A stretch of 48,523 nucleotides of DNA, taken from positions 1 through 48,523 of IMG/VR virus record IMGVR_UViG_3300009175_000009; one strand, given 5' to 3'. The notes under the pieces were generated by a model. That model worked only from the letters and a program-made list of their open reading frames with translations. It was not told the origin of the DNA and made no database searches. This document shows, one piece after another, positions 1 to 46,015 of this stretch. A program made the position numbers and the translations under genes. Numbering within the stretch: position 1 is the first letter of the stretch; each line of letters begins with the position of its first letter. The DNA comes from a virus (Duplodnaviria > Heunggongvirae > Uroviricota > Caudoviricetes).

Positions 1-2
1 AT

Positions 3-8895: not shown

Positions 8896-9099
8896 TCAGC
8901 GTTCTACCTTTCTAGGTTCAGTATCATGCGAACCGCGTGCCGAAACACGCAAAACCTGAATTTCATCACCAAGCTCCTCGTCGGGAGCGAAGCCGTACCG
9001 TTCCTCAAATGCTGCGAGGGCTTCGCGTTCGGCGGTCTTCAGGCTTTCGGAGGTGATCACGACTGCCCGCCCGTTGCTGCGGCATAGGTATCGGGGCAT
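8896..9099 (-). CDS. Hypothetical protein
   Basis: 67 aa in the operon; its 3' end overlaps the sigma54-like motif at 8921-8941. Confidence 0.5.
   Translation of the reverse strand: MPRYLCRSNGRAVVITSESLKTAEREALAAFEERYGFAPDEELGDEIQVLRVSARGSHDTEPRKVER
8921..8941 (-). promoter_or_regulatory. Sigma54-type -24/-12 motif
   Basis: GGCACGCGGTTCGCATGATAC. Confidence 0.75.
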
Positions 9100-9102
9100 G
9101 GT

Positions 9103-9477
9103 TCATTCTCCGCACGGGCACATCGGGCCGCAAAGGTGGTCGGGGCCGCTGGTGTTCGCCTGCGGCAGGTCATACTCAGTGTTGCGGGATCCGTCCGCGT
9201 TCCAGGCGGTCGCCTCCTGCATGGCCAAGGCCCGGTCGCTGCATACGGCGGCCAAGGCGTGCCAGCCGCAGTCGTTGCTGCGGGCCATTTCATCCAGAGC
9301 CTGGAAGTTCGCCCCGATCACCGGCAGTTCATCGGTCTGCACGCACAGGCACTGGGCGATGCGGGCGATGGCAATTCGCAGCCGTATCGCGCTGTCCTCG
9401 GCGTTATTCACCGCCACTTCGGCCAAATTGCCGCGGGCCAGTTCACGCATACTTCTGCCTTGGGGAAATATGGACAC
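9103..9477 (-). CDS. Hypothetical protein
   Basis: 124 aa, AGGAG RBS. Confidence 0.55.
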   Translation of the reverse strand: MSIFPQGRSMRELARGNLAEVAVNNAEDSAIRLRIAIARIAQCLCVQTDELPVIGANFQALDEMARSNDCGWHALAAVCSDRALAMQEATAWNADGSRNTEYDLPQANTSGPDHLCGPMCPCGE

Positions 9478-9486
9478 GGTAGTCTC

Positions 9487-9663
9487 CTAATGAGTTCGGT
9501 GGTTGACGGTCAGCTTTCGTCGCGGGGCTTTCCGTTTTGGTTCATCGTAATGGCTTGGAGCGATATCGAAAAGCGTCCGCTGCACGGGGGTGTCGTCGAG
9601 GCACGCTCCGATCTCACGATCAAAGCGTTCGACGCTTTCTTTCGGTGGCCAGGGCTTATTCAT
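9487..9663 (-). CDS. Small hypothetical protein (58 aa)
   Basis: Hand-translated MNKPWPPKESVERFDRE...KAPRRKLTVNHRTH; fills the operon gap. Confidence 0.45.
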   Translation of the reverse strand: MNKPWPPKESVERFDREIGACLDDTPVQRTLFDIAPSHYDEPKRKAPRRKLTVNHRTH

Positions 9664-10141
9664 CTTTGGGCTCCTCGGTTTTGCCGTAGTACTGATCCTG
9701 CTCGGCCTCGGTCATATCATGAACGTGGATGGGCGTGGCCGAGGTGATATCCCACGTCCAGTCGCCGCTGCCGACAACCTTCAGTTGGCATGGTCCGTCA
9801 CGGTGTAGGGTCTCGTGGCCGGCAATATCGGCTTCGTCTCCGTCCGTGGGCACAACGTCGGGGCCTGTGGGCTGCGGGGCAACGGTGGGCGTCCACTTGA
9901 AGCTATCGTAGAACGGGGCCAGCGTGCCCGGAACACGGCGATACACGCCGATCAGCCGCCCGCCGTCCTCAAAGCTCTCGACATACTCGTGCAGTTCGGT
10001 AGCGGCTTCAGGACCATCGCAGTAGAACAGCCGCACGTCGCCGATGATCAAAGCCAGGCCGATCCATTCGCAGTTGGGATCGAAGTCGTAGCTGATGCCT
10101 TTGTATGTGCGGTCTTGACCGCGAACATGAATGCTTCTCAT
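9656..10141 (-). CDS. Hypothetical protein
   Basis: Start at MRSIHV, coupled to the upstream stop codon. Confidence 0.55.
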   Translation of the reverse strand: MRSIHVRGQDRTYKGISYDFDPNCEWIGLALIIGDVRLFYCDGPEAATELHEYVESFEDGGRLIGVYRRVPGTLAPFYDSFKWTPTVAPQPTGPDVVPTDGDEADIAGHETLHRDGPCQLKVVGSGDWTWDITSATPIHVHDMTEAEQDQYYGKTEEPKDE

Positions 10142-10142
10142 A

Positions 10143-10532
10143 TCAGTCGATTTCCTCTCCGGTAAAGTGCTTAGTGCAGTACGGGCACGTCCAGTCCGCA
10201 CCGAGGGGCCGGTTGACGAACGGGTCGCCTTCCATCGGGCAGCAGAACTCGCAGCCCGAGTATGCTGCGGGACGACCGTGGCAGACACTGGCTTCAGCAC
10301 CGTGGCGGACACCGGCTTCAGCACCGTGAGCAAACGCCACCAGTGTATGAATCCAGTCGCGGCTAATCGGCCTGCCAGTGTTGCGAACGGCAGTGATATC
10401 GATACCGTTGCCGCCGTTACGTGCGACCTTAGCGAACGTCATATCGGTATATGTACGCCGCAGGGCGTTCAGGGTGGATTCGGTGACGGCGTCGTTGCCG
10501 CCGTTGTAAATAGTGATCGGGGGTCGCGGCAT
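10143..10532 (-). CDS. Hypothetical protein with C-terminal CxxC pairs
   Basis: CEFCC and CPYC zinc-ribbon-like motifs; short HGAEA repeat. Confidence 0.55.
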   Translation of the reverse strand: MPRPPITIYNGGNDAVTESTLNALRRTYTDMTFAKVARNGGNGIDITAVRNTGRPISRDWIHTLVAFAHGAEAGVRHGAEASVCHGRPAAYSGCEFCCPMEGDPFVNRPLGADWTCPYCTKHFTGEEID

Positions 10533-10535
10533 GGT

Positions 10536-10703
10536 TTATCCTTTCAGGTATCCGAGATCGTCCTTGGGCCAGTCGTGGCGGGCATACAGGGCTTGCCACC
10601 AAGCCGCCGCCTCCTTCTCGTCGGCGGGCTTGGGCTTCCAGCACTTGTCGCACGAACAATTCACCGCAGCGTGGCGTTCGGGCTTCTGTTTGTTCTTGGG
10701 CAT
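10536..10703 (-). CDS. Small hypothetical protein
   Basis: 55 aa, GAAAGGA RBS, first gene after the sigma54-like motif at 10726. Confidence 0.55.
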   Translation of the reverse strand: MPKNKQKPERHAAVNCSCDKCWKPKPADEKEAAAWWQALYARHDWPKDDLGYLKG

Positions 10704-10725
10704 GATACGGTTCCTTTCGGTATCC

Positions 10726-10746
10726 GTATCATGCAATCGCCGTGCC
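10726..10746 (-). promoter_or_regulatory. Sigma54-type -24/-12 motif
   Basis: GGCACGGCGATTGCATGATAC. Confidence 0.75.
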
Positions 10747-10753
10747 CGTCGAA

Positions 10754-11002
10754 TCAAACCTCGTCGCGGATTCGCAGGTAGGTCGGGAACCGAGGCACTC
10801 CGTCGTCGGTCAGTTCTTGGTAGCGGAAGGTGATCACGGTGCCGACCGGGAATCGGGACTCTTCGCGTTGTACGTCGTCGAACCCGCTGCCGACCGAGAA
10901 CTCTTTACCGTTCGTCGCCCGGCATCGCAGGGCACCGAGGCGTCCGCGATGGCGGCCCTTGCCCGCGACGTAGCCGATTACCGTAGCCTCGGCGTCGTGG
11001 GT
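10754..11002 (-). pseudogene. Remnant C-terminal OB-fold domain of a second ATP-dependent DNA ligase, in frame with the HNH 3' part
   Basis: HDAEATVIGYVAGKGRHRGRLGA...FSVGSGF...YQELTDDGVPRFPTYLR is clearly homologous to the C-terminus of 11675-12697. Confidence 0.8.
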
Positions 11003-11584
11003 TAGCCATGTTCTACCGTGTAGGACGTGCTGCACCGCACCCTTGCTCACGTCAAGTTCTGTTGCGATTTCTCGAATCAACCACCCGATTCCGCGTAGTC
11101 TCCATACTTCATGAATATCGTCTTCTGTCAGTTTTGACCGGCAGTGCTGCTCGCCCCTGGGCATTCGACCTTTGGAAACAGCATCTCGAATATTGTCTTC
11201 TTGTGATCCTAAAAACAGGTGGTCGGGACGGCAGCACCCACGGTTATCACAATGATGACAGACACTCTGGCCTTCCGGTATAGGACCGTGGGTTATGATC
11301 CATGCCGCCACATGCGGTCCGTACCCCGCGAACTTGCAACTCTCCATAGCCCGTGCTTCCGTGACCACCGAGCCATTCCCAGCAGCTAGTGGCATCGTCT
11401 ACTTTTGCAACGCGAGACCATAGACGGTCTGCGAGACTAGCCTCCCGATCTCCGATCAAAATCGCTAGCGGGTCACCGTGTGTTTTCCATCGCAGGTAGT
11501 GCTTTCGGCACCAACCGCGAGCTAGATGCACGTTCGGTTCGCTTGACCCAGTGTCTGACGTTCGCTAGATTTACGTTTAGCCAT
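11003..11584 (-). pseudogene. Frameshifted HNH homing endonuclease
   Basis: ARGWCRKHY and CWEW...GYG lie in one frame; HVAAW...GPIPEG..VCHHCDNRGCCRPDHLFLGSQEDN lies in another (ACCGCATGTG, consistent with a 2-nt deletion from ACC GCA CAT GTG). The ATG frame at 11584 stops after 20 codons. Confidence 0.75.
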
Positions 11585-11649
11585 GACTGCACTTCTACTG
11601 CATGTTGTGGATAGAACAGCCTGGAGGTTGGCCCCTCCAGGCTGTTTGT

Positions 11650-11678
11650 ATTCTAGCCCAACTTGCGGAAAGCGTCAA
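11650..11678 (-). promoter_or_regulatory. Sigma70-like promoter of the HNH pseudogene
   Basis: TTGACG-N17-TAGAAT, followed by a 13-bp hairpin at 11615-11646. Confidence 0.7.
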
Positions 11679-12697
11679 GCTTGGTTTTCCGCCATTCGTA
11701 AGAACGTAGGAAAGCGTGGAACTCCTCGGTCGGTCAACTCTTGATAGCTGTAAGTGATGCGGCTGCCGATAGTCGGTGGGTTCGACCGCTGTTCGTCTGA
11801 AAAACCAGACCCGACCGAAAACGTCTGGCCGTCTGGCATCTCGCAAATCACTGCACCCATCACGCCTCGGTGCCTGCCCTTGCCCTGGGTGATACCGACG
11901 ACTCTGGCTTCCATATCATGTCGGGTCTTCACCTTCAGGAGGGTCGTGCTGCGGCGGGCTTCGTACTTCGACTTGGGCTTGCGAAGCATCAAACCTTCCG
12001 CACCCTGAGCTTCGACCGAGGCGAGGTGCTGCCGCAGGTGTTCTTCGCCCTTGCAGCGAACCTGTCGAACCACCTGGGCCGGTCCTTCGCCTTGGACGAC
12101 CTCGCGGAGGTATTCGTACCGTTCCTCAAACTCGCCGCCGTGCTTGGGGGCGTCGAAGACCATGTACTTGATCTGATGCCATTCCTCGCCGGGGTTCAGG
12201 CGACGGACGATGCTCATGGTTTCCTGAAACCGCTTGCGTCCGAGCCAAAGTTCGCCGTCCAGACAGACGTTCTTGGGCATCGCGTCTTTGAACCACTGCG
12301 GGGCGTGGAATTCGTTGCCCAGGCGGCTTATGAACTTCTTGCCGTCCCACCAAGCCCGAACCCCGTCGAGCTTCTCGCTCATGTGCCATCCAGTCGGATC
12401 TTGGACACCGTCCCACTTTTCGGCCAACAGTACGGGCGGGGCTTCGACCGTTGGTTTTTCGATAGCAGGCCGTAACGTAGTACTTGCGATTGATGCAGTA
12501 GCCAAACCAAGACGTTCGTTTTCGGAAGCTTCACCTCGGAATTTCTTCAGGTGCTTGCACGTCCTCTGGTCTGGATGCAGATGTTGGTTTCTCCAGGACG
12601 GACAGGAGCAACTGTAGGCCCCGTTCGTGTTCTTAAGGATGTACGGGTTTTTACCCGATCCTTGCATGGTAGTTGATTCGCCGTTTTTCAAGTTCAT
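11675..12697 (-). CDS. lig: ATP-dependent DNA ligase with N-terminal SWIM-type zinc finger
   Basis: Motif I SEKLDGVRAWWDG, LDGELW, YMVFDAP, EGLMLR, LLKVK, OB-fold PRFPTF; CSCPSW...CKH zinc finger. Confidence 0.92.
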   Translation of the reverse strand: MNLKNGESTTMQGSGKNPYILKNTNGAYSCSCPSWRNQHLHPDQRTCKHLKKFRGEASENERLGLATASIASTTLRPAIEKPTVEAPPVLLAEKWDGVQDPTGWHMSEKLDGVRAWWDGKKFISRLGNEFHAPQWFKDAMPKNVCLDGELWLGRKRFQETMSIVRRLNPGEEWHQIKYMVFDAPKHGGEFEERYEYLREVVQGEGPAQVVRQVRCKGEEHLRQHLASVEAQGAEGLMLRKPKSKYEARRSTTLLKVKTRHDMEARVVGITQGKGRHRGVMGAVICEMPDGQTFSVGSGFSDEQRSNPPTIGSRITYSYQELTDRGVPRFPTFLRMAENQA

Positions 12698-12732
12698 GGT
12701 TAAGTTCCTTGGAGTTTGTGTTTCCGTAGGCT

Positions 12733-12753
12733 ACATCATGCATCTTACGTGCC
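12733..12753 (-). promoter_or_regulatory. Sigma54-type motif overlapping an HEG stop codon, upstream of the ligase
   Basis: GGCACGTAAGATGCATGATGT. Confidence 0.7.
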
Positions 12754-13395
12754 AATATTTTGAATTCGACGGCGTATCAGAAGCGGCTTGCGGCCTGAAC
12801 TCATTTTGGGCATGGATAGGGCAATTTCGACTCCGTGTTTTTGAATACGTTCACGAAGCGTTCCCCAGGAAATTCCTATGCGTCGTGCCCATTCCGTTAG
12901 ACTGGCTGTTTGACCATTGTAAGTTAGCGGGGCTTTCCGAATTTCAGTGCGAAAGGCACGATGTGGGTCAACGTGCAGGCGGATATTCACAGCTTCCTTT
13001 GTAATGCCAAGACGACGTGCCCAGCCAGGAGCCGATAAGGTAATTCCGTCGTAAGTGTACATGGCCTTACGACGGTTGCCCTGCTGTTCCAGCCATGTGG
13101 CCCAGCGGCAGTTTTCTGGACAGTAGTTGCCGTCGTTATCGGGGTAGCGATCAATACTATGGCCGGGCGACGGGCGAGGCCCTATGTCGGCTAGGAAATT
13201 ATCGAATGACTCGATCCAACGATCACAGACGCGAATTCCTCGACCACCGTAGTTTGCGTATTCACGGCGGTTCGAGTTGTAGCATCTCTGTAGCATGCCA
13301 GTCCAAATACTGTATTCAGTTGGATACTGAGATCGTCGTGTAGATCGCCTGTATTTTCTTCGGACGTTTTCAACGCTAGAATGGCTTTTAGCCAT
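12745..13395 (-). CDS. HNH-like homing endonuclease with two C-terminal DNA-binding repeats
   Basis: WTGMLQRCYN...YGGRGIRVCDRW..SFDNF...SIDR..NDGNYCPENCRWAT; TYxG...WARRxGI occurs twice. Confidence 0.85.
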   Translation of the reverse strand: MAKSHSSVENVRRKYRRSTRRSQYPTEYSIWTGMLQRCYNSNRREYANYGGRGIRVCDRWIESFDNFLADIGPRPSPGHSIDRYPDNDGNYCPENCRWATWLEQQGNRRKAMYTYDGITLSAPGWARRLGITKEAVNIRLHVDPHRAFRTEIRKAPLTYNGQTASLTEWARRIGISWGTLRERIQKHGVEIALSMPKMSSGRKPLLIRRRIQNIGT

Positions 13396-13457
13396 GACAG
13401 CCTCTGTAATAGGTTGTAGTGGTGAACGGTCAAGGTATAGGCACCTTGACCGTTCTT

Positions 13458-13486
13458 ATTCTAGCACGACCCCGTCTAACTTTCAA
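13458..13486 (-). promoter_or_regulatory. Sigma70-like promoter of HEG 12745-13395
   Basis: TTGAAA-N17-TAGAAT, followed by a 13-bp hairpin at 13424-13455. Confidence 0.7.
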
Positions 13487-13490
13487 GTGC

Positions 13491-13883
13491 TCACAATTCC
13501 CAACTTGGTCGTTCGATATCGGGCGTCCATTTCTCGGCCAGCAGGCAGGGCAGGTCGCCTGCAACCCCGACCGCTACGGGGGCCGCTGAGCGGCTCACGC
13601 GGGCTACCGAGCGTCGTGCGGCTGAAACTGCGACCGGGGCTGCTACGGCGGCGGGTGCTACCTGTACGGCGACCTGCTGGCCCAGGCGGGCCAGTTCTGC
13701 GGCGACTCCGCGAAGGGCCTTGATATGCTTGCAGGTTCGCATATCGGGGTGCAGGTGTTGGTTCCGCCACGCGGGGCAAGAACAGCTATACACGCCGTGA
13801 ACGTTCTTGATCTGGTAGGGCTCGCGGGCCGAACCCTGAACATAGGCGACTTCGCCGTCTGCGAGGTTTCGGAAGGCTGGCAT
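13491..13883 (-). CDS. Truncated DNA ligase N-terminal (SWIM zinc finger) fragment
   Basis: YSCSCPAWRNQHLHPDMRTCKH and LLAEKW match the ligase at 11675-12697. Homology stops before the adenylation motif, then ERPSWEL*. Confidence 0.8.
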   Translation of the reverse strand: MPAFRNLADGEVAYVQGSAREPYQIKNVHGVYSCSCPAWRNQHLHPDMRTCKHIKALRGVAAELARLGQQVAVQVAPAAVAAPVAVSAARRSVARVSRSAAPVAVGVAGDLPCLLAEKWTPDIERPSWEL

Positions 13884-13948: not shown

Positions 13949-13969
13949 ATATCATGCGAACGCCGTGCC
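13949..13969 (-). promoter_or_regulatory. Sigma54-type motif (leftward member of a divergent pair)
   Basis: GGCACGGCGTTCGCATGATAT. Confidence 0.78.
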
Positions 13970-14066: not shown

Positions 14067-14087
14067 GGCACGCCGTTCGCATGATAT
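14067..14087 (+). promoter_or_regulatory. Sigma54-type motif (rightward member of a divergent pair)
   Basis: GGCACGCCGTTCGCATGATAT. Confidence 0.78.
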
Positions 14088-14156: not shown

Positions 14157-14852
14157 ATGCCCGCTACGATTAGAAGCTTTCTGGACACGCAGTTACACGC
14201 CGGCTGCAACATCATCAGCCTTGCCTACATCAGCAAGAAGACAGCAGGCGACGGCCTTTTGCAAAAGAGCCGAGCGACCGGCCAGCCGACCTCCGAGGTT
14301 TATCTGATGGGGGTGCAGCGTGAGGCCCAAGGTCGGTTTTTCCTGGGGTTCGACTACGCCAAGAACGTCGACGCCCAGCGGGAACGCGAGGGCAAAGCCG
14401 GCGACCCCTACGTGGTCGAGGGCCTGTGGTGCGACAAGGACGGCAACGCCAAGGGCCGCCACTTTGCCGACTACCCCAGCTTGGTTTTCCACGTTGACCG
14501 GCCCGCCAGCGAGTACCTTTACACGCGACCGTACCAGGACAAACAGGGGAGGATTCAGAAAGAGTACAGCGTGTGGCGGGATATCGCTACCCAGCGGATC
14601 CTGACCGCCGAAGAGGTGGCCGACCTCAAGGCCAACTACCTGCCCAAGGTCAGCCCGAGCAAGAAGCAGGATTTGGCGAAGGAAATCCCGGTGCGGGTTT
14701 TCAAACTGGAAACCATGTTCGCCCTCAAGGTCAAGGGCAAGGGCGAGTGGGTTTACCTTACCGAAGACCGCCCGAGCCGAGCCGAGCGAGTTGTGGCCCG
14801 CCGCCGCATGCAAACCGCCAACGCCGAACTTCGGCCCACCTGGGAAATCTGA
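14157..14852 (+). CDS. Hypothetical protein (ends LRPTWEI)
   Basis: 231 aa, AAGGA RBS, first gene after the sigma54-like motif at 14067. Confidence 0.65.
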   Translation: MPATIRSFLDTQLHAGCNIISLAYISKKTAGDGLLQKSRATGQPTSEVYLMGVQREAQGRFFLGFDYAKNVDAQREREGKAGDPYVVEGLWCDKDGNAKGRHFADYPSLVFHVDRPASEYLYTRPYQDKQGRIQKEYSVWRDIATQRILTAEEVADLKANYLPKVSPSKKQDLAKEIPVRVFKLETMFALKVKGKGEWVYLTEDRPSRAERVVARRRMQTANAELRPTWEI

Positions 14853-14989: not shown

Positions 14990-15664
14990 ATGCCGTACAA
15001 AAACCCTGCCGACAAAAAGGCGAATGACGCACGACGTGCGGCGGCTATCCTTGCTGACCCTGTTCAACGGGAGAGACGCAATGCACGGCATTGTAAGAAC
15101 TATGCCCGCCTCAAAAAGAACTCATCTTGGTGTAGGAAACGAGCCGAGGATTCGCACCGCCGCAACCAAACCAAATACTACGCTGATGTGGCGGCATCCC
15201 GCAAGCTCGTGCGGGAGCGGTTATCGCAAATGCGGGTGGCCAACACAGGCAATATCAACGGAAAAACCAAGGCGTATCGCCAACAGCACCGGAAGCAAAT
15301 CAACGCCAGTACCAAGGCATGGCTGGTGGCCCATCCTGAACGGGCCAAAGCGTACCGGCGGGCGGCACATCTTCAGGCAAAATATAAGATGACCCACAAA
15401 ACATACGAGGAGATGTTTAACGCTCAGGGTGGCGTATGTGCTGCGTGCGGTCAGCCTGAAACAAGTAAACGGCTAGGAGTGATTCGGCACATGCACGTCG
15501 ATCACGACCACGCCACCGGCAAGGTGCGAGCCCTATTGTGCCACAGATGTAATTCCGCCCTTGGACTTCTCAAGGACGACCGAACACTGGTGGCTAACCT
15601 GCTACTCTACATCAGCAAGTACCAACCCGTCACCCGCCGAAGAATTCAAACTGTTGGCACATGA
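14990..15664 (+). CDS. Endonuclease VII-family (His-Me finger) homing endonuclease
   Basis: QGGVCAACG...HVDHDHATGKVRALLCHRCNSALGLLKD; basic helical N-terminus. Confidence 0.85.
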   Translation: MPYKNPADKKANDARRAAAILADPVQRERRNARHCKNYARLKKNSSWCRKRAEDSHRRNQTKYYADVAASRKLVRERLSQMRVANTGNINGKTKAYRQQHRKQINASTKAWLVAHPERAKAYRRAAHLQAKYKMTHKTYEEMFNAQGGVCAACGQPETSKRLGVIRHMHVDHDHATGKVRALLCHRCNSALGLLKDDRTLVANLLLYISKYQPVTRRRIQTVGT

Positions 15665-15676
15665 CGTGCATGATAC
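15656..15676 (+). promoter_or_regulatory. Sigma54-type motif overlapping an HEG stop codon
   Basis: GGCACATGACGTGCATGATAC. Confidence 0.7.
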
Positions 15677-16159: not shown

Positions 16160-16180
16160 GGCACGCCGGTTGCATGATAA
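16160..16180 (+). promoter_or_regulatory. Sigma54-type motif
   Basis: GGCACGCCGGTTGCATGATAA. Confidence 0.78.
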
Positions 16181-16309: not shown

Positions 16310-16337
16310 TTGACGTAGCGAGTAGATCAGCTAGACT
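16310..16337 (+). promoter_or_regulatory. Sigma70-like promoter of the HNH-AP2 HEG
   Basis: TTGACG-N16-TAGACT. Confidence 0.6.
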
Positions 16338-16455: not shown

Positions 16456-16977
16456 ATGCCGGAAAGACGCAGAATAACGAGCGTGCGGTTCATACCGCTG
16501 ACGCAGGGCCGGTTTGCTATCGTGGATGCAGCCGATTACGAATGGCTGACGCGATTCAGCAAGTGGTGCTACAACGGAACCAAAGGCTATGCCGTCAGCA
16601 GCCTAGTTCGCCGGTTGTCTCGGGCCGGCGAATCGTATCAGATGCACCAGATCATTATGCGGGCTCCTCCCGGCGTAAGCCCAGACCATAAGAATGGCAA
16701 CAAGCTCGATAACCGCCGCAGCAATCTGCGGCTGGCCAACGGTACGCAGAATATGGCCAACCGCGATCTACAGAGCAACAACACGACCGGCTACAAAGGT
16801 GTAGTTAGGCATCGTGGTAAATTCCGAGCCCGCATCGGCGATGGACTTCGCAAGGGTGGTCGGCATCTTGGCATATTCTTGACCGTTGAAGAAGCAGCTT
16901 TGGCCTACAACACGGCGGCTGTTGAAATGTACGGTGAGTTCGCTTGTTTGAATTCGGTTGGCACGCGATTCGCATGA
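16456..16977 (+). CDS. HNH-AP2 homing endonuclease
   Basis: IPLTQGRFAIVD...DHKNGNKLDNRRSNLRLA; C-terminal AP2-like YKGV...FRARI...HLGIF...EEAALAYN. Confidence 0.88.
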   Translation: MPERRRITSVRFIPLTQGRFAIVDAADYEWLTRFSKWCYNGTKGYAVSSLVRRLSRAGESYQMHQIIMRAPPGVSPDHKNGNKLDNRRSNLRLANGTQNMANRDLQSNNTTGYKGVVRHRGKFRARIGDGLRKGGRHLGIFLTVEEAALAYNTAAVEMYGEFACLNSVGTRFA

Positions 16978-16980
16978 TAC
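16960..16980 (+). promoter_or_regulatory. Sigma54-type motif overlapping an HEG stop codon
   Basis: GGCACGCGATTCGCATGATAC. Confidence 0.75.
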
Positions 16981-18804: not shown

Positions 18805-19137
18805 ATGAACCACGAAGAATTCCTCAAGTTTCTTGGCAGCGAGGCCCGACCCAAGTGTGGCCGGTGCTGGTGGCGGGAGGGCCGCAAGTGCTACAACGAG
18901 AACCTCGGTGCAGTACCGGGCGAGGGTCAGGACATCACCGCTGAACTGTGGGCTACCTGCTCTGCCACACCCGCGTACCAGAACAGTCGGGCGACCCTGG
19001 CTCAGGCCCTGCCGAACATCTTGCTGGCCGTCGCGGCACAGACGCAGCCCGCTGAAAAGGTTGTCCAGTGCTGCGAAGCTGTCGAGTCGGCATACGATTC
19101 GCATGATACCGCTGGTCAGAAAGGAACTGAATCATGA
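18805..19137 (+). CDS. Hypothetical protein
   Basis: CGRC motif; packed operon. Confidence 0.55.
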   Translation: MNHEEFLKFLGSEARPKCGRCWWREGRKCYNENLGAVPGEGQDITAELWATCSATPAYQNSRATLAQALPNILLAVAAQTQPAEKVVQCCEAVESAYDSHDTAGQKGTES

Positions 19138-24529: not shown

Positions 24530-24550
24530 GGCACAGCGTTCGCATGATAT
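24530..24550 (+). promoter_or_regulatory. Sigma54-type motif
   Basis: GGCACAGCGTTCGCATGATAT. Confidence 0.75.
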
Positions 24551-24924: not shown

Positions 24925-24945
24925 GGCACGCCATTCGCATGATAT
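24925..24945 (+). promoter_or_regulatory. Sigma54-type motif
   Basis: GGCACGCCATTCGCATGATAT. Confidence 0.75.
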
Positions 24946-25952: not shown

Positions 25953-25973
25953 GGCACGGCATTCGCATGATAT
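25953..25973 (+). promoter_or_regulatory. Sigma54-type motif
   Basis: GGCACGGCATTCGCATGATAT. Confidence 0.75.
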
Positions 25974-26282: not shown

Positions 26283-26303
26283 GGCACAGCCTTCGCATGA
26301 TAG
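26283..26303 (+). promoter_or_regulatory. Sigma54-type motif
   Basis: GGCACAGCCTTCGCATGATAG. Confidence 0.72.
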
Positions 26304-26506: not shown

Positions 26507-27004
26507 ATGTCGCGTAATCCAGTTGGTACGGCGTGGCGGGACATGAAGTACCGCTGTTTTAATTCAAGCCACCAAGCCTATTTTAACTATGGTGGTCGTG
26601 GAATTACGGTCTGCTTGGGTTTACAAGATTTTACTAAGTTCACCCAGGTTCTAGGCCCACGACCAGAAGGCTACACTCTTGACCGCGAAGATAACGAGGG
26701 TAGCTACACCTGTGGTGAATGCGACCAGTGCCGGGAGAATGAGTGGGTGAAGAACGTAAGGTGGGCTACGCGAAGTGATCAGCAGCTTAACCGAAGGACA
26801 ACGAATCATACCGTACTGTACAGGGGTGTAAGTCTCCATCTTGGAAAGTACTACTTAGCCCAAATTCGCTGTAACGGGTTACTACAATACGTGGGGTGTT
26901 TTCCTACGGCAAGGGAAGCCGCCATCGCGTACAACCAGGCGGCTACAGCCATTCGAGGGGCGAACGCTAAGATAAACCGAATTCGGATTCAGACCGGCAC
27001 GTGA
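26507..27004 (+). CDS. HNH-like/AP2 homing endonuclease
   Basis: AWRDMKYRC...YGGRGITVC...GPRPEGYTLDREDNEGSY...NVRWAT; AP2-like YRGV...AQIR...VGCFPTAREAAIAYN. Confidence 0.85.
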   Translation: MSRNPVGTAWRDMKYRCFNSSHQAYFNYGGRGITVCLGLQDFTKFTQVLGPRPEGYTLDREDNEGSYTCGECDQCRENEWVKNVRWATRSDQQLNRRTTNHTVLYRGVSLHLGKYYLAQIRCNGLLQYVGCFPTAREAAIAYNQAATAIRGANAKINRIRIQTGT

Positions 27005-27016
27005 TTCGCATGTTAA
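26996..27016 (+). promoter_or_regulatory. Sigma54-type motif overlapping an HEG stop codon
   Basis: GGCACGTGATTCGCATGTTAA. Confidence 0.7.
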
Positions 27017-27736: not shown

Positions 27737-27925
27737 ATGGATGACCTAACCAGAAAGCTGATCAGCAAGTGTTCGTACCAGCAAGACTTCGCGGCAGCCC
27801 TGAAATTTGCCGCCGACGTCTTGGCGATTCTGAACAAGCACGATGCCGATCAGCCGACCATCCTGATGTCATCCATCGAGTTGTACGAAACTGAAAAAGT
27901 AGTAAACGGCACGTCAAGTGCATGA
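27737..27925 (+). CDS. Hypothetical protein
   Basis: 62 aa; ends inside the sigma54-like motif at 27908. Confidence 0.5.
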   Translation: MDDLTRKLISKCSYQQDFAAALKFAADVLAILNKHDADQPTILMSSIELYETEKVVNGTSSA

Positions 27926-27928
27926 TAT
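27908..27928 (+). promoter_or_regulatory. Sigma54-type motif
   Basis: GGCACGTCAAGTGCATGATAT. Confidence 0.7.
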
Positions 27929-35313: not shown

Positions 35314-35390
35314 CGGTGTCTGGTCTTGTTGCCAGTCGACGTGGATGGTATCCTCGTTGCGTATAGCACCAACAATCGGACCCAAATATT

Positions 35391-37510: not shown

Positions 37511-37544
37511 TGTGTTCAGTGATGTAGAAAGAAGGTAATACAAC

Positions 37545-37757: not shown

Positions 37758-37763
37758 CGCCGT

Positions 37764-38846: not shown

Positions 38847-38971
38847 TCGATACGCCAACGATTTAGGTTGGTGCAGGCTGGACAGAATCATCTTTCTGCC
38901 CAGCCTGTAGTTGTTTGTGCATGTGTCTAGTGACACGAGGTATTAGAACTTGCAACCACAGGAGAAGTACG

Positions 38972-39673
38972 ATGCCCTTCCGACGACCTAAACGAGAAAG
39001 CGGCTCGGATGTAGTCGCCCGCTGGCTGATCAACAACCCCGATGCGACTCACCGGATGGTTGAAGATCACTTTGAGGTTGATAACCCCGATGCCAATCCA
39101 CCCCGCATTTACCCCAACGGCAAGATGTTTCTGGTCGACGGTAAGATGATCAGAATCACCCTGGGCCATGTTCGCGGAGGACGCAGGAAGCTGATGTCCG
39201 ACCCGTACAAGACCGCAACCCACGTCGGAGCGTCTTCAGCCAAGGCTGTGGTAGCGTCTGACTCGCTGCGAGCCCAGTCATCGGAGAGGAAGGCGTTTGA
39301 TTCCAACGCGAAGTGCCGGGCTAACGCGGGCAAGGCTGGTGTGGGCGTGACCGAGGATACCCGCGCGCTCACGAACGGTACGCCGAAGCCGAGGCCAAAG
39401 CGCAAACGCCGCAAAGACGCCGGGTACGTCAAAGTCGAGGACAGTCCGCTGTTGTCGGCCAAGCCCCCGGTTGCTGCCCCGCCGCCTCGGCAGTTGACGG
39501 TGGCCCCCGACGCCCAGGCTAACGACCTGTCCGAGGTGTTCATCGCCAGCATGAAGGCCCAGATCGCGGCGAAGAATCCGCCTGTGGACGAGGGGGATGA
39601 GATACTGAACCAGGCCACCTTTGATGAACTCGTCGCCCGCCACCGCAGCCGGAATGCGACACGAGGCGTCTGA
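38972..39673 (+). CDS. Hypothetical protein
   Basis: AGGAG RBS. Confidence 0.6.
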   Translation: MPFRRPKRESGSDVVARWLINNPDATHRMVEDHFEVDNPDANPPRIYPNGKMFLVDGKMIRITLGHVRGGRRKLMSDPYKTATHVGASSAKAVVASDSLRAQSSERKAFDSNAKCRANAGKAGVGVTEDTRALTNGTPKPRPKRKRRKDAGYVKVEDSPLLSAKPPVAAPPPRQLTVAPDAQANDLSEVFIASMKAQIAAKNPPVDEGDEILNQATFDELVARHRSRNATRGV

Positions 39674-39674
39674 T

Positions 39675-39923
39675 ATGATCACGCCTATTATCAGCGGCCT
39701 GCCGGCAACGCCATGCGATGATCCGAACTGCTATGTCAAGGCCCTTGGCATGGGAGATGCATTCAGCGAATGGATTTGTCCGCACTGTGGGGCTCATTTG
39801 GGAAGCGGTAATATCTGTTTGAACCTGTGCGGACTGAGTTACCCCGCCGCCCGACGTTTCAACGACATCCTGGCTGAGGCTGTTGCCGCAGTTAATAGCC
39901 GTCGCCTGGAAAATCCAGGCTAA
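39675..39923 (+). CDS. Hypothetical zinc-ribbon protein
   Basis: CPHCG...CLNLC. Confidence 0.55.
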   Translation: MITPIISGLPATPCDDPNCYVKALGMGDAFSEWICPHCGAHLGSGNICLNLCGLSYPAARRFNDILAEAVAAVNSRRLENPG

Positions 39924-39965
39924 GGATGTATGATCGCGTGTCTGGTTGGGAAAGGAGGATTTCCC

Positions 39966-40373
39966 ATGAAGGCAAAACGCTTCGTCGCCCTGGTTCGGAT
40001 TTGGCGGTTTGTGCCGCCTTGTATCGATCAAGGGACAAACGAGATCGAACACGAAGGTACGATGGTCGTGAACCGGGCGACCACAGTCTGGCCGGTTTGG
40101 CGTGGCTGTACCCGCCAGCCGCTACGATCCCGCGAATACTTCTGGATCACCTATCGCGGGAAACGGTATCCTGTAGACAGGGCCGAGGACGGTGAGGGTG
40201 TGGCGTATGAGGTGCGATTGGCATCCGACGACAACCCATTGACGGCAACACAGCTTGACCGTAAGACGATCACCCGCGAGACGGCCCGCGAAACCGCACT
40301 GGCCCGTGAACTTCTACACCGCGGCCTGGTTGCCAAAGCCAAAACCGGGCGGCAGAAAGGAGGCCGCCGATGA
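39966..40373 (+). CDS. Hypothetical protein
   Basis: AGGAGG RBS. Confidence 0.55.
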   Translation: MKAKRFVALVRIWRFVPPCIDQGTNEIEHEGTMVVNRATTVWPVWRGCTRQPLRSREYFWITYRGKRYPVDRAEDGEGVAYEVRLASDDNPLTATQLDRKTITRETARETALARELLHRGLVAKAKTGRQKGGRR

Positions 40374-40981
40374 TGCACGTCACAGCACTATTCAAGACAC
40401 CAAAGGATACGACCTGGAGGCCGGTCAGCTACGGCACTGGAAGCAACCTGCGATGGGCGGCACATAGCTGCTTCGTTGCGACAGCAGGCACCGGCATTAC
40501 CTATGAAGAGGTGAAGATCGAGGGCAAGCCCAAGGGCGAGTATGATATGGAGGCCCACGTCACCCGCAAGAACCCTGACGGGAGCGTGGCCGCCGAATGG
40601 CGGATCGTACCATCGCCGGGTTCTCGCCCCGACCCCGATGCCCCCAAGTTCGTACCGCAGCCGCCCCGACCGTCTGTGGCCGATACGCGGGCCAATAGCA
40701 AGGCCCACAAGCCCGCCGTGGCCGCACAGGCGGCCCGCCGTGGCGTGGCAGTGGGTACGGTGGTAGAACGGGCCAAGACGCCCGAACCCGCCGAACTGCC
40801 CCCAATACCGTCGCACGCGTCGGCAGGTTTGGTTCGGCGACCTATCGCCCGCCGCCCCCTGACCCGCAAGTCCCTCGACAACGCCCCGCCAGCCCCGACC
40901 GTTCGCGGTCCATTGCCCCGCCGCAGGCTAACGGTCAGCGGGCAGGCCCAGGCTGGCAGGACTATCGTGGAATACGACTGA
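40370..40981 (+). CDS. Hypothetical protein with Pro/Arg-rich C-terminus
   Basis: AGGAGG RBS, ATGA overlap. Confidence 0.6.
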   Translation: MMHVTALFKTPKDTTWRPVSYGTGSNLRWAAHSCFVATAGTGITYEEVKIEGKPKGEYDMEAHVTRKNPDGSVAAEWRIVPSPGSRPDPDAPKFVPQPPRPSVADTRANSKAHKPAVAAQAARRGVAVGTVVERAKTPEPAELPPIPSHASAGLVRRPIARRPLTRKSLDNAPPAPTVRGPLPRRRLTVSGQAQAGRTIVEYD

Positions 40982-41008: not shown

Positions 41009-41029
41009 GGCACGGCGGTTGCATGATAC
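41009..41029 (+). promoter_or_regulatory. Sigma54-type motif
   Basis: TTGGCACGGCGGTTGCATGATAC (full TGGCACG-N4-TTGC consensus). Confidence 0.8.
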
Positions 41030-41570: not shown

Positions 41571-41591
41571 GGCACGGCGGTTGCATGATAC
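41571..41591 (+). promoter_or_regulatory. Sigma54-type motif upstream of the amidoligase
   Basis: CTGGCACGGCGGTTGCATGATAC. Confidence 0.8.
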
Positions 41592-42541: not shown

Positions 42542-42562
42542 GGCACACCAGATGCATGGTAG
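42542..42562 (+). promoter_or_regulatory. Sigma54-type motif (divergent copy)
   Basis: GGCACACCAGATGCATGGTAG. Confidence 0.6.
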
Positions 42563-42858: not shown

Positions 42859-42887
42859 TTGACTAATCGCGGACACCCGTCTAGAAT
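42859..42887 (+). promoter_or_regulatory. Sigma70-like promoter of HEG 42905
   Basis: TTGACT-N17-TAGAAT; AGGAGG RBS follows. Confidence 0.72.
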
Positions 42888-42904: not shown

Positions 42905-43519
42905 ATGAAACGCCGAACGCAGCCAGACGAATGTATGACTGAGGGATGCCGCTGCAAAGCCCTGTCGCGGGGCCTGTGCCCGCCGTGTTACGCGAGAGTG
43001 AGCAGGCTGGTACAACTAGGCCAGACGACCTGGAACGTCGAGGTGTCCGCAGGGCGGGCTATACCGGCCCGCGACAACCACGGAGAAAGCGGGACAAGGC
43101 TGCACGATATTTGGGAAGGGATACGAGGCCGCTGCTACAACCGTAACAGTACCAGCTATCGGCACTACGGAGCCCAAGGGATACGGATGTGCCGATCATG
43201 GCACCGCTACCTGAACTTCAGGGATTGGGCACTGGCGAACGGCTACCGCGACGGGCTGGTATGCGACCGCAAGGACGGAAGGAAGAATTATACTCCCGGC
43301 AACTGCCGGTGGGTTACGCAGGCTGAGAATGTCCGCAACAATTTGAACGTGGAGTGGTTCACGGCCTGGGGCGAAACGAAAACGGTGGGTCAGTGGTTTC
43401 AGGACGCACGGTGCGTGTTGGATAATGAAAGTACGCTGCGAATGCGGATTGCTCACGGATGGGATGTGGAAAAATCGATTACAAAACCGGCCAGGGCTTA
43501 TGGCACGCGAAGTGCATGA
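42905..43519 (+). CDS. HNH-like homing endonuclease
   Basis: SRGLCPPCY finger; IWEGIRGRCYN...YGAQGIRMC...DRKDGRKNYTPGNCRWVT. Confidence 0.85.
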   Translation: MKRRTQPDECMTEGCRCKALSRGLCPPCYARVSRLVQLGQTTWNVEVSAGRAIPARDNHGESGTRLHDIWEGIRGRCYNRNSTSYRHYGAQGIRMCRSWHRYLNFRDWALANGYRDGLVCDRKDGRKNYTPGNCRWVTQAENVRNNLNVEWFTAWGETKTVGQWFQDARCVLDNESTLRMRIAHGWDVEKSITKPARAYGTRSA

Positions 43520-43522
43520 TAT
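43502..43522 (+). promoter_or_regulatory. Sigma54-type motif overlapping an HEG stop codon, upstream of the GATase
   Basis: GGCACGCGAAGTGCATGATAT. Confidence 0.72.
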
Positions 43523-44248: not shown

Positions 44249-44307
44249 GTCTTGGCACGATTTAACGTACTACATTTACTCTAATTGCGAATCTGTAAGG
44301 AGAAGTT

Positions 44308-44547
44308 ATGAATATCGAGACTGAACTTTTGCAGGCAACTGGACAACACCCACGTGGTGCGGAAGAGACCGAGCAGGTCTACTTGAATCGAATCGCATGG
44401 GCTGTCGATGACATGCCCGAGTCGGTGTGGGATGCCTTGTCACAGGATGCCAAGGACTGGTTCAATTCAGCGTCCGATGTTTACGATGAGTGTAAGCAGA
44501 TTCCGGCGGGTGCCGTTCTGCCGACGTTCGACGCGGTTGGATCATGA
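44308..44547 (+). CDS. Hypothetical protein (paralog of the 45075-45482 N-terminus)
   Basis: AAGGAG RBS; visible similarity to the 45075 ORF. Confidence 0.6.
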   Translation: MNIETELLQATGQHPRGAEETEQVYLNRIAWAVDDMPESVWDALSQDAKDWFNSASDVYDECKQIPAGAVLPTFDAVGS

Positions 44548-44589
44548 TTTGGGCGAATTCTTCGGCAGCAAGATAAATGGAGCAAGATC

Positions 44590-45078
44590 ATGAGCAAGTT
44601 CAAGTTGTGGCCAGGGCGGGTGCAGACGGTGGTTGGGGTGGTGTTCTACCTCTATCTGATGTTCGTCTGCATTCGCGGCCCGTGGTGGTCGAAGCTGGTT
44701 GCTGTGATCTTCGCCCTGTACGCAGTCAATGTGGTTGCGAGTCTGGCCCTGCACCGCACGGCGTGGTATACGAAGTCCACGAGCAGGGGTTGGTGGTATC
44801 GGTGGGCCTTCCGCCGCCTTCGTTTTAAGATGAAGCAGATCTTACCCGACCATGCCTTGTTGTCTTACCCTTGGGCTATTTTTGTTGAGCTAGAAATACC
44901 TGCGATCTTCGAGCAAGGCGGCCTGCCGGCAGTACGCGAGGCCATCGATGGATGGGGTGAGAAGCAGGAGAAGGCGTTCGACGCGATGATCCACAAGGTA
45001 TGCGAGAAGCATTTCGCAACCGAGTCTATACTCGATGACGACTTCGTGCTGACGCCCGACGAGGATGAATCACCATGA
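44590..45078 (+). CDS. Putative membrane protein
   Basis: Two N-terminal hydrophobic helices. Confidence 0.6.
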   Translation: MSKFKLWPGRVQTVVGVVFYLYLMFVCIRGPWWSKLVAVIFALYAVNVVASLALHRTAWYTKSTSRGWWYRWAFRRLRFKMKQILPDHALLSYPWAIFVELEIPAIFEQGGLPAVREAIDGWGEKQEKAFDAMIHKVCEKHFATESILDDDFVLTPDEDESP

Positions 45079-45482
45079 GCGTCGAAAGTGAAATCCTGGC
45101 CGCGACAAACCAGGTTGGTCGCCGCCCGACCGAGGACGAGCAAGATTACCTGAAGCGAATCAGCCAAGCCACGTTCGATCTGTCACCGACAGTATGGAAC
45201 CGCATGTCGGAACAGGCTCGCAGGTGGTCTTACGATTCGGTTGTGGCTCAGGACGGAAACGGCGTGTTACCGCCGATGCCCGTCACGCCGAAGAGCAAGT
45301 TTGGCGAGGCCCACATCGAAATGCTTCAGGAGGCCATCCAGCAGGCACTAGACCGCGTGGCCATCGAGTTTTTGACCAGTAGCGACCGCTTCCGCAACCT
45401 CGACCTGAACTTCGACGTGGGTGTAGGTATCACCAGCGGTGAACGCAGCGTGACCTTCAAGGTCGAAGCAACAACCCCGTAA
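45075..45482 (+). CDS. Hypothetical protein
   Basis: ATGA overlap; paralog of the 44308 ORF. Confidence 0.6.
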   Translation: MSVESEILAATNQVGRRPTEDEQDYLKRISQATFDLSPTVWNRMSEQARRWSYDSVVAQDGNGVLPPMPVTPKSKFGEAHIEMLQEAIQQALDRVAIEFLTSSDRFRNLDLNFDVGVGITSGERSVTFKVEATTP

Positions 45483-45584
45483 CCAACGAACTTCTGCTCC
45501 CCGTGCCGAGATGCCTTGGGCGGCATACGGTTGGCGAAAGCCAGCCGACCTCGGCACGGGTATTTAAACAATGGAGACCGTATC

Positions 45585-45986
45585 ATGCCCCGCACAGCCG
45601 ACCTCGCTCCCATGCCCGACGATTGGGCACCCTGGTGTACTGACTACGACCGCCGCCGAGCCTGGGAGCAGCACCTGAAGCTGACCGCCGCCATGCAACG
45701 CGAGAACGAGCAACTGCGGAAGCACGCCGCGAAGCTGCCCCGTCGCCAGTATATGGCATCAGCGACGACCGGCGAACGCAGCCTGCTGAACGCTGCGGTG
45801 GAGACGTTCACCGATTTCGGCGAGGAGGGCCGCAAGACCAGAATTGGCCAGCACCTGACCATCGCTACGGCCTTAACGCAGTACGCCCGCCTGTGGAATA
45901 CCTATGGGCGGCTTCACGGCTTCCGGGTCTGGCAGGAGGAGACCGAACTGGGCAAACAGCAGCGTCTGGCCCGCCGCCGAAAATGA
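45585..45986 (+). CDS. Hypothetical protein
   Basis: GGAG RBS. Confidence 0.6.
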   Translation: MPRTADLAPMPDDWAPWCTDYDRRRAWEQHLKLTAAMQRENEQLRKHAAKLPRRQYMASATTGERSLLNAAVETFTDFGEEGRKTRIGQHLTIATALTQYARLWNTYGRLHGFRVWQEETELGKQQRLARRRK

Positions 45987-45994
45987 ATCCGAAC

Positions 45995-46015
45995 GGCACA
46001 CGGGTTGCATGATAT
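45995..46015 (+). promoter_or_regulatory. Sigma54-type motif
   Basis: GGCACACGGGTTGCATGATAT. Confidence 0.75.

What the first reader, a model, noticed from the sequence alone, without database searches (positions are those of the whole stretch)
8921..46015. Phage regulon of 19 extended sigma54-type promoters
SEEN: 19 oriented copies of GGCAC-N7-GCATG, all with GG-N10-GC spacing; 16 of 19 continue as GCATGATA. They lie upstream of gene clusters on the coding strand, including a back-to-back pair at 13949/14067 where transcription diverges. None occurs in the tail module (1-6974) or the replication block (31000-40900). ESTABLISHED: TGGCACG-N4-TTGC is the RpoN -24/-12 consensus, and RpoN holoenzyme normally needs an AAA+ enhancer-binding protein. 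No such protein is visible in this window. INFERENCE: the phage drives its early/accessory genes through host sigma54, or through a phage factor that reads this box. The near-invariant ATGATA after -12 is not part of the standard consensus and may ease melting or bind a phage activator.
Basis: partly seen in the sequence, partly recalled or inferred. Interest (0 to 1): 0.87.

Follow-up and report, generated by a model that had tools for sequence, protein, structure and literature searches.

The report
Sigma-54-type promoter regulon in phage
A large uncultured lake phage, probably of planctomycete bacteria, puts the two-part DNA signal normally read by the bacterial sigma-54 RNA polymerase in front of at least 23 gene cassettes, yet no activator gene was found in the 87% of its genome that I could inspect, so it probably borrows the host's sigma-54 machinery in a way still to be worked out.

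Summary
There are 19 exact GGCAC-N7-GCATG sites (0.18 expected by chance), and 16 of them continue as GCATGATA. All point the same way as the next gene and lie just upstream of it. A weak 20th copy lies at 19089. Four more strong copies lie outside the window, in the full 192.5-kb genome.

Each site matches 9 to 12 of the 12 defined positions of the sigma-54 consensus TGGCACG-N4-TTGCW. Three related phage fragments carry six sites, five of them at matching positions. These keep GGCA(C/T)-N8-TGCAT, but the GATA tail drifts. That favours a sigma-54 reading over a sigma-70 -10 box (CATGAT).

Three lines of evidence point to a Planctomycetota host: the phage sigma factor, the tmRNA and an amidoligase gene. 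All planctomycete genomes tested encode RpoN, and those tested for activators encode 12 to 18 each. No RpoN, activator or RNA polymerase gene turned up in about 167 of the 192.5 kb.

The best reading is host sigma-54 promoters with phage-specific additions: the TGATA tail, an upstream GAWTC/GAATTC element and a YRGAAA start region. The activator is unknown, and there is no transcript evidence.

The kind is already known, from phage YuA in the literature. This scan has noted many sigma-54-like promoter sets in other phage genomes. This one is an unusually large and clean example.

The parts
8922..8941 (-). sigma-54-type site (-25 to -6), CGGCACGCGGTTCGCATGATA; next gene 8708-8496
   Evidence: (39.8 bits)
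10727..10746 (-). sigma-54-type site; start codon 30 nt after the -12 C; the Shine-Dalgarno sequence GAAAGGA follows the predicted start
12734..12753 (-). sigma-54-type site ahead of the DNA ligase gene 12697-11675; the upstream endonuclease-type ORF stops inside the N7 spacer
13950..13969 (-). sigma-54-type site, leftward member of the divergent pair; GTGTCTGG lies 22 nt upstream
14067..14086 (+). sigma-54-type site, rightward member of the divergent pair; GAATTC-n-GATTC upstream; gene 14157-14852
   Evidence: (51.9 bits)
15656..15675 (+). sigma-54-type site; the endonuclease VII-like gene 15230-15664 stops inside it; next gene 15699
16160..16179 (+). sigma-54-type site ahead of a 283-nt leader and the HNH gene 16456-16977
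16960..16979 (+). sigma-54-type site; the HNH gene uses the TGA of GCATGA as its stop codon; next gene 17104
19089..19108 (+). weak 20th copy (GGCAT at -25 to -21), 32 nt before gene 19134
   Evidence: (16 bits)
24530..24549 (+). sigma-54-type site, best score; gene 24606
   Evidence: (53.5 bits)
24925..24944 (+). sigma-54-type site
25953..25972 (+). sigma-54-type site
26283..26302 (+). sigma-54-type site ahead of a sigma-70-like promoter (26361) and gene 26507-27004
26996..27015 (+). sigma-54-type site (GCATGTTA); the upstream gene stops in the spacer; gene 27107
   Evidence: (29.5 bits)
27908..27927 (+). sigma-54-type site; gene 28009
41009..41028 (+). sigma-54-type site, 12 of 12 consensus positions; conserved in relative L507:2606
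41571..41590 (+). sigma-54-type site ahead of the amidoligase gene; conserved in L507:3924 and L513:148; stable hairpin in the leader
42542..42561 (+). sigma-54-type site (GCATGGTA) overlapping GTGTCTAG; conserved in L507:4865 and L512:1021
43502..43521 (+). sigma-54-type site ahead of the glutamine amidotransferase gene; conserved in L513:1831
45995..46014 (+). sigma-54-type site; gene 46072; this unit may run on to the region-2-only sigma-like gene at 48077

Best explanation
These are enhancer-dependent-type (-24/-12) promoters read by the host's sigma-54 RNA polymerase holoenzyme. At least 23 of them, each packed directly behind the preceding gene, head short cassettes of accessory and nucleic-acid-metabolism genes. 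These include ligase, amidoligase, amidotransferase and many small unknown genes. The sites lie in three parts of a roughly 192-kb phage whose host is most likely a planctomycete (Pirellulales or Planctomycetaceae type).

Shown: the motif, its number, orientation and placement; its match to the sigma-54 consensus; conservation of its core in relatives; the presence of rpoN and 12-18 activator genes in the inferred host clade; and the absence of such genes from the 87% of the phage genome that I could inspect.

Inferred: sigma-54 holoenzyme binds the sites as a closed complex. It is then opened either by a host activator acting without a dedicated upstream site, or by an unrecognised phage factor. 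Transcription starts within a few bases of the conserved YRGAAA, about 12-15 nt after the GC.

The phage-specific additions are TGATA at -10 to -6 and a GAWTC/GAATTC element at about -40 to -30. They most likely tune strength, melting or factor docking, and are not needed for recognition.
For: 1. One search gives 19 sites against 0.18 expected. Together with four further sites, all 23 point the same way as the downstream gene and lie immediately upstream of it.
2. Every site has GG-N10-GC and matches 9-12 (mean 10.6) of the 12 positions of TGGCACG-N4-TTGCW. The two invariant blocks lie one helical turn apart, a geometry known only for sigma-54 (established knowledge).
3. In three related fragments (amidoligase 86-88% identical) there are six sites, five of them syntenic with own sites. 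They keep GGCA(C/T)-N8-TGCAT, and in two of the three pairwise alignments this is the best-conserved stretch of a diverged intergenic region. Positions -9 to -6 vary: CTAC, GATG, GCTA, GACG, GATT, GATA.
4. Host inference rests on three lines. All 80 best genomic matches of the phage sigma factor carry Planctomycetota-type names except the last (a Nealsonbacteria MAG); identity is 47-54%. The tmRNA aligns over its full length at 68-71% with five planctomycete genomes, but only at its 3' end or not at all in five other phyla. The amidoligase has 57-62% homologues in planctomycete genomes.
5. Those genomes encode RpoN (5 of 5, E 1e-45 to 1e-63) and 12-18 Sigma54_activat proteins each.
6. The three shortest leaders place the Shine-Dalgarno sequence at +5 to +10 of a start 12 nt after the GC, so the start must lie close to where sigma-54 geometry predicts.
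7. Precedent: phage YuA uses sigma-70 and sigma-54 promoters, and one sigma-54-like start site was mapped by ONT-cappable-seq (PMC10914365).
Against: There is no transcript or binding evidence of any kind.

The host is inferred, not known.

No shared upstream activator site was found at -245 to -41, and no activator gene in the phage, so the obligatory ATP-dependent opening step has no identified agent.

The invariant TG at -10/-9 (29-30 of 30 sites, relatives included) and the near-invariant ATA at -8 to -6 in this phage are not part of the sigma-54 consensus. About 30 sigma-54-like sites in planctomycete genomes did not show them. This hints at a second reader.

CATGAT at -12 to -7 has the A(-11) and T(-7) of a sigma-70 -10 box, and roughly half of the sites carry a TTGA-type sequence at about -36 to -31, some 18 nt upstream of it.

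If the conserved Y-R at +3/+4 is the start, the GC lies 15 nt upstream, about 2 nt more than is usual for sigma-54.

The phage has three sigma-70-family proteins of its own, and 25.3 kb of its genome could not be inspected.
Confidence: 0.64

Rival explanations
1. A phage-encoded factor reads the box and sigma-54 plays no part. Candidates are the full sigma at 34393-35313, the region-2-only protein at 48077-48601 (possibly with the region-4-only protein at record 78152-78631), the HARE-HTH protein at 38448-38846, or a polymerase hidden among the giant unannotated proteins. The likeness to a sigma-54 promoter would then be mimicry or descent from one.
For: The invariant 8-mer GCATGATA sits at -13 to -6, where T4 late promoters carry TATAAATA read by the region-2-like gp55 (established knowledge). 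The phage encodes a weak Sigma70_r2-only protein, a Sigma70_r4-only protein and a HARE-HTH protein. The TG at -10/-9 and the GAWTC element are conserved but are not sigma-54 features. No activator is in sight. Proteins of 1250, 1676 and 3461 aa have no informative family match.
Against: A chance match of a phage-specific motif to eight fixed sigma-54 positions at the exact spacing is about 1 in 65,000. Sigma-70-family proteins place their two DNA-reading domains about 17 bp apart, not 7-8. Relatives conserve the sigma-54 core rather than the 8-mer. A second motif, GTGTCTRG (31 copies), is available for the phage factors. No RNA polymerase family hit was found in about 167 kb.
Confidence: 0.2
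2. They are sigma-70-type promoters. CATGAT (-12 to -7) is the -10 box and TTGATT/TTGAAT about 18 nt upstream is a -35 box. Host primary sigma or the phage's planctomycete-type sigma reads them, and GGCAC is a spacer element or an activator box.
For: A(-11) and T(-7) are invariant in the 19 sites. GATTC, GAATC or GAATTC lies within 35 nt upstream of the first G in 18 of 30 sites, against 8% of random windows. The predicted start would be the same as under the sigma-54 reading.
Against: T(-7) is lost in 2 of 6 sites in relatives, while GG/GC stay intact. The -35-like element is absent from a third of the sites and its register shifts by 5-6 nt. The invariant GGCAC would sit unexplained in the spacer. 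The phage's evident sigma-70-like promoters look different (TTGACG-N16/17-TAGAAT). The generic sigma-70 scan did not pick up these sites.
Confidence: 0.08
3. The sites bind sigma-54 holoenzyme, or a nuclease, but are not promoters. They could be a sink that titrates host sigma-54 polymerase, or repeated target and boundary sequences of the homing-endonuclease cassettes.
For: Twenty-three high-affinity sites per genome copy rival a whole host regulon (one search gives a few dozen candidate sites per 5-7 Mb). Six upstream genes, five of them endonuclease-type, end inside a site. Earlier notes of this scan describe gene-less sigma-54 box arrays in other phages.
Against: All 23 sites are co-oriented with the next gene and lie 27-283 nt before its start codon, one at 541. 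Most sites have no endonuclease gene nearby. Several leaders begin with a stabilising hairpin.
Confidence: 0.05

Closest known systems
Bacterial sigma-54 (RpoN) dependent -24/-12 promoters, e.g. glnAp2, pspA, nifH (consensus TGGCACG-N4-TTGCW)
   Same: Invariant GG-N10-GC, with flanking bases matching 9-12 of 12 consensus positions. The sites lie upstream of the genes and point the same way. The inferred host clade has rpoN and many activator genes.
   Different: No upstream activator sequence was detected and no activator is known. Positions -10 to -6 (TGATA) are nearly invariant here. There is an added GAWTC/GAATTC element at about -40 to -30 and a conserved YRGAAA near the start. The density is at least 23 in one phage genome, each packed 6-28 nt behind, or overlapping, the previous gene's stop codon.
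Sigma-54-type promoters of Pseudomonas aeruginosa phage YuA (Ceyssens et al. 2008, as cited and re-mapped in PMC10914365)
   Same: A phage without its own activator gene that carries sigma-54-like promoters beside sigma-70-like and phage-specific ones.
   Different: In YuA, PMC10914365 associated a single mapped promoter (P015) with a sigma-54-like region. Here it is the dominant class for three genome regions. The phage is about 192 kb, probably infects a planctomycete, and encodes its own sigma-70-family proteins.
T4 late promoters (TATAAATA at -13 to -6, read by gp55 with gp33 and the sliding clamp)
   Same: An invariant 8-mer at -13 to -6. The phage encodes a small region-2-like protein, a clamp and a clamp loader.
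   Different: The T4 element has no -24 box. Here the 8-mer's 3' half is not conserved in relatives, while the -24 box is.

Membership tests
sigma-54-dependent promoter | GG and GC doublets exactly 10 nt apart (-24/-12) | tested here: met
   30 of 30 sites: 19 exact plus one weak in the window, 4 elsewhere in the genome and 6 in relatives.
sigma-54-dependent promoter | Flanking consensus TGGCACG-N4-TTGCW | tested here: met
   9-12 of 12 positions per site, mean 10.6.
sigma-54-dependent promoter | Lies upstream of a gene, points the same way, with room for a leader | tested here: met
   Every site is co-oriented with the next gene. From the -12 C to the start codon is 27-283 nt, 541 at one site.
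sigma-54-dependent promoter | Host encodes RpoN | tested here: met
   5 of 5 planctomycete genomes with the closest sigma homologues carry PF04552. The host itself is inferred.
sigma-54-dependent promoter | An AAA+ enhancer-binding activator is available | tested here: inconclusive
   The host clade has 12-18 PF00158 proteins per genome. None was found in about 167 of 192.5 kb of the phage. Which one acts, if any, is unknown.
sigma-54-dependent promoter | Upstream activator sequence about 80-150 bp upstream | tested here: not met
   No shared k-mer at -245 to -41. The only shared element is a proximal GAWTC/GAATTC at about -40 to -30. Some activators work without a DNA site, so this does not exclude the family.
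sigma-54-dependent promoter | Start site 11-13 nt after the GC; dependence on rpoN and ATP hydrolysis | not testable with these tools
   No RNA run holding the phage was listed.
sigma-70-type promoter | -10 hexamer with A at position 2 and T at position 6, conserved | tested here: not met
   CATGAT fits in this phage, but T(-7) is A or C in 2 of 6 sites in relatives.
sigma-70-type promoter | -35 hexamer 16-18 nt upstream of the -10 | tested here: inconclusive
   A TTGA-type sequence sits at that distance in roughly half of the sites, in two registers 5-6 nt apart, and is absent from a third.
single-subunit or virion phage RNA polymerase promoter (T7 or N4 type) | Phage encodes such a polymerase | tested here: inconclusive
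   No polymerase family hit in Pfam or PHROGs for the proteins tested or listed. Three giant proteins remain unannotated and 25.3 kb was not seen.

The most novel reading that the evidence does not exclude
The phage opens sigma-54 closed complexes without a classical enhancer-binding ATPase. In this reading the conserved proximal GAWTC/GAATTC element, the TG(ATA) extension at -10 to -6 and the YRGAAA start region form the docking and melting site for a small phage-encoded (or injected) activator, or make the promoters partly self-melting. That would be a new route of sigma-54 activation, and a tightly silent switch that only the phage can throw.
Probability: 0.15. Interest if true: 0.85.

Novelty: new variant of a known kind. 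Interest (0 to 1): 0.6.

Why it matters
Sigma-54 promoters are completely silent until an ATPase opens them. A phage that places at least 23 of its gene cassettes behind them must therefore either depend on a host signalling ATPase or carry an unknown way to open the complex. Either answer would be informative about phage-host control.

The system is unusually clean. It has one strong consensus and many copies. The sites are conserved in relatives. The same genome also holds two other promoter-like classes, one sigma-70-like and one GTGTCTRG. It also gives a first look at transcription signals in a phage of Planctomycetota, a phylum whose phages are barely studied. The short, well-defined 50-bp element can be tested directly in vitro.

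Tried and rejected
1. DNA similarity to 50,697 phage records found no match. Protein-level matches to cultured phages were at most 30% identical.
2. IMG/VR holds no close relative. Eighty distant DnaB-bearing loci show no enrichment of sigma-54-like cores (104 matches against 81 for the reversed control).
3. Scans of viral, genome and metagenome collections for the extended motif returned only single hits per contig, spread over many phyla. They give no relatives and no host clue.
4. The relative L018 (DnaB 79% identical) covers only the site-free replication block.
5. Sequencing runs: no RNA holder was listed; only lake and freshwater DNA metagenomes hold the phage.
6. OMP decarboxylase as a host marker was uninformative.
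7. The planctomycete amidoligase genes have no sigma-54-like site upstream, so the promoter was not captured together with that gene.
8. A hairpin (N4-type) reading of GCATGATATGC fails, because the palindrome is complete in only 5-6 sites.
9. The core-motif regular expression used had a spacer one base too long. It was corrected. The weight-matrix scans were not affected.
10. The Ceyssens 2008 paper itself is not held.


Full report
OBSERVATION. The pattern GGCAC-N7-GCATG occurs 19 times in the window, 4 times on the - strand and 15 on the + strand. Shuffles give 0.18 on average and at most 1. Sixteen copies continue as GCATGATA. The 112.5-kb virus record that contains the window holds no further exact copy. 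A weight matrix over -40 to +9 separates the 19 sites (29.5-53.5 bits) from everything else. The only other hit is a degenerate copy at 19089 (GGCAT, 16 bits), which lies 32 nt before gene 19134.

I number the GC as -13/-12. The column profile is then aaT (-38 to -36), A.tGGCACG (-28 to -20), TyGCATGATA (-15 to -6), C at -2 and cRgAA at +3 to +7.

PLACEMENT. My own gene calls agree with those attached to public contigs. On these calls every site points the same way as the next gene. Eight sites begin 6-28 nt after the previous stop codon. Six overlap the end of the previous gene: three of those genes stop in the N7 spacer, and three use the TGA of GCATGA. The distance from the -12 C to the start codon is 30-283 nt, and 541 at one site. 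In the three shortest cases the Shine-Dalgarno sequence GAAAGGA falls at +5 to +10 of a start 12 nt after the C, so transcription must begin close to that point. The pair at 13969(-) and 14067(+) marks the point where the leftward block 6975-13883 and the rightward genes diverge. Several leaders carry a G+C-rich hairpin shortly after the conserved YRGAAA. The one at 41571 is very stable (z -5.7), those at 24530 and 14067 are weaker, and three others are not significant.

THE GENOME IS LARGER THAN THE RECORD. The identical DnaB protein sits on a 192,532-bp contig. Walking along that contig showed that the record lacks about 80 kb, which holds the terminase, portal, capsid, tail and giant-protein genes. 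In that part, a block of small genes next to the portal gene carries four more strong sites (L516:8782, 9130, 9533, 10196). Each lies 27-49 nt before a start codon. The capsid-to-tail region has none. The regulon therefore has at least 23 members in three regions. The stretch 62,985-88,302 of the contig could not be inspected.

WHAT THE MOTIF RESEMBLES. Each site matches 9-12 (mean 10.6) of the 12 defined positions of TGGCACG-N4-TTGCW. Two invariant blocks one helical turn apart is the sigma-54 geometry. Sigma-70-family proteins need about 17 bp between their two elements (established knowledge).

The rival sigma-70 reading cannot be dismissed from this phage alone. CATGAT at -12 to -7 has the critical A(-11) and T(-7). 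GATTC, GAATC or GAATTC lies within 35 nt upstream of the first G in 18 of 30 sites, against 8% of random windows. These elements sit in two registers, starting at about -34 and about -40.

COMPARATIVE TEST. The amidoligase gene led to three related fragments: L507 (86% identical), L512 (88%) and L513 (87%). Together they carry six sites, five at positions syntenic with 41009, 41571, 42542 and 43502. The sequences are TGGCACGCCGATTGCATCTAC, CGGCACGGCAGTTGCATGATG, TGGCATGCGAGATGCATGCTA, CGGCACGCCAGATGCATGACG, TGGCATGCCAAGTGCATGATT and TGGCACGCGAAGTGCATGATA. In pairwise alignments the stretch GGCAC...TTGCAT is the best-conserved island in two of the three intergenic regions; the third region is conserved more broadly. 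GG, GC and the CAT that follows are kept in all six. Positions -9 to -6 drift, and T(-7) is lost twice. Selection therefore acts on the sigma-54 core, not on a -10 hexamer. The TGATA tail is a peculiarity of this phage, although TG at -10/-9 is kept in 29-30 of 30 sites.

HOST. The phage sigma-70-family protein (34393-35313; regions 2 and 4) lies nearest to Planctomycetota sigma clusters. All of its 80 best genomic matches carry Planctomycetota-type names except the last (a Nealsonbacteria MAG), mostly Pirellulales, Thermoguttaceae or Planctomycetaceae, at 47-54% identity. The phage tmRNA aligns end to end at 68-71% with five such genomes. In five genomes of other phyla only its 3' 30-80 nt match, or nothing does. 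The amidoligase has 57-62% homologues in planctomycete genomes. All five planctomycete genomes tested encode the RpoN DNA-binding domain, and those tested for activators encode 12-18 Sigma54_activat proteins each. About 30 sigma-54-like sites in those genomes do not continue as TGATA.

WHAT THE PHAGE LACKS AND HAS. In the inspected 167 kb there is no Sigma54_activat family, no Sigma54_DBD family, no GAFTGA-like loop and no RpoN box. The only classical Walker A protein of unknown partner is the clamp loader. No RNA polymerase family was hit (and the Pfam columns).

The phage does encode a full sigma, a weak region-2-only protein (48077-48601), a region-4-only protein, a HARE-HTH protein and CsrA homologues.

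Two other promoter-like classes share the genome. The first is sigma-70-like, TTGACG-N16/17-TAGAAT. It lies ahead of the endonuclease genes, and similar sites lie ahead of the tRNA/tmRNA pair and the replication block. The second is GTGTCTRG, with 31 copies. It fills the regions that lack sigma-54-type sites, including the site just before the sigma gene. The last sigma-54-type unit (45995) may run into the region-2-only gene, which would fit a cascade; this is inference only.

INTERPRETATION. The most economical reading is that host sigma-54 holoenzyme binds these sites and that they are promoters. The unexplained step is opening. No upstream activator sequence is shared and no activator is encoded, so either a host activator works from solution or a phage factor does the job. 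A recent preprint describes a phage AAA+ protein that resembles enhancer-binding proteins structurally but lacks GAFTGA, so unrecognisable activators are conceivable. The non-canonical conserved bases leave room for a phage-specific reader; these are TG at -10/-9, ATA at -8 to -6, the proximal GAWTC element and YRGAAA. I put that rival at about 0.2.

PRIOR KNOWLEDGE. [quoted passage not shown] Earlier notes of this scan list many sigma-54-like promoter sets and arrays in other uncultured phages, again without an activator gene. The kind is therefore known. This example stands out for its size, its extended consensus, its conservation in relatives and its probable planctomycete host.

Noticed in passing
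window 11650-11678(-), 13458-13486(-), 16310-16337(+), 26361-26388(+), 42859-42887(+): Each free-standing endonuclease-type gene has its own sigma-70-like promoter (TTGACG-N16/17-TAGAAT) and ends inside the next sigma-54-type site. The layout is therefore site, then sigma-70-like promoter plus nuclease gene, then site, then gene. This suggests the nuclease cassettes insert at, or carry along, a promoter copy.
   Followed up: partly
whole record; in the window at 13991(-), 17814, 22858, 31054, 34367, 35316, 38290, 38923, 39938, 42562, 48397: GTGTCT(A/G)G occurs 31 times, 29 of them on the + strand, usually 14-170 nt before a start codon. It fills the regions that lack sigma-54-type sites. One copy overlaps site 42542, and one lies 26 nt before the phage sigma gene.
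   Followed up: partly
L516:8719-8764: There are 4.6 tandem copies of a 10-bp unit (ACCGACCCTA) directly upstream of the first sigma-54-type site of the second promoter block, inside an 820-bp gene-poor control region. This could be an iteron or regulator array, or an origin.
   Followed up: no
L515:10225-15255 and L516:1-6197(-): Giant proteins of 1676 aa and 3461 aa lie next to the portal gene, with weak PI3/PI4-kinase and InPase family hits. A 1250-aa protein (L514:3762-7514) has no family hit at all.
   Followed up: partly
window 29345-29873: The phage carries tRNA-Met and a full tmRNA (tag AKNKFEKAPAFALVA) behind a sigma-70-like promoter at 29170. The tmRNA is 68-71% identical over its whole length to planctomycete tmRNAs.
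   Followed up: yes
record G000 against contig ena:ERZ27245846:k141_83342: The 112.5-kb virus record is rated 100% complete, yet it is only part of a 192.5-kb genome. Its right end continues into the contig's start, which suggests a circularly permuted or circular assembly.
   Followed up: partly
L009:77-601; L010:10152-10631; window 38448-38846: A region-2-only sigma-like protein, a region-4-only sigma-like protein and a HARE-HTH protein (the fold of the RNA polymerase delta subunit's N-terminal domain) are encoded besides the full sigma. Together they could form a split sigma or an appropriation system.
   Followed up: partly
L508-L511 (planctomycete genome G006): One planctomycete genome holds four copies of the amidoligase gene (58-62% identical to the phage's). 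Three of them show an in-frame stop within the matched span, which suggests that they lie on repeated mobile elements.
   Followed up: no
L514:16572-19337; relative contig: The phage's large terminase carries an intein with a LAGLIDADG domain. In the 86% relative, the DnaB and SNF2 helicases carry inteins that this phage lacks.
   Followed up: no
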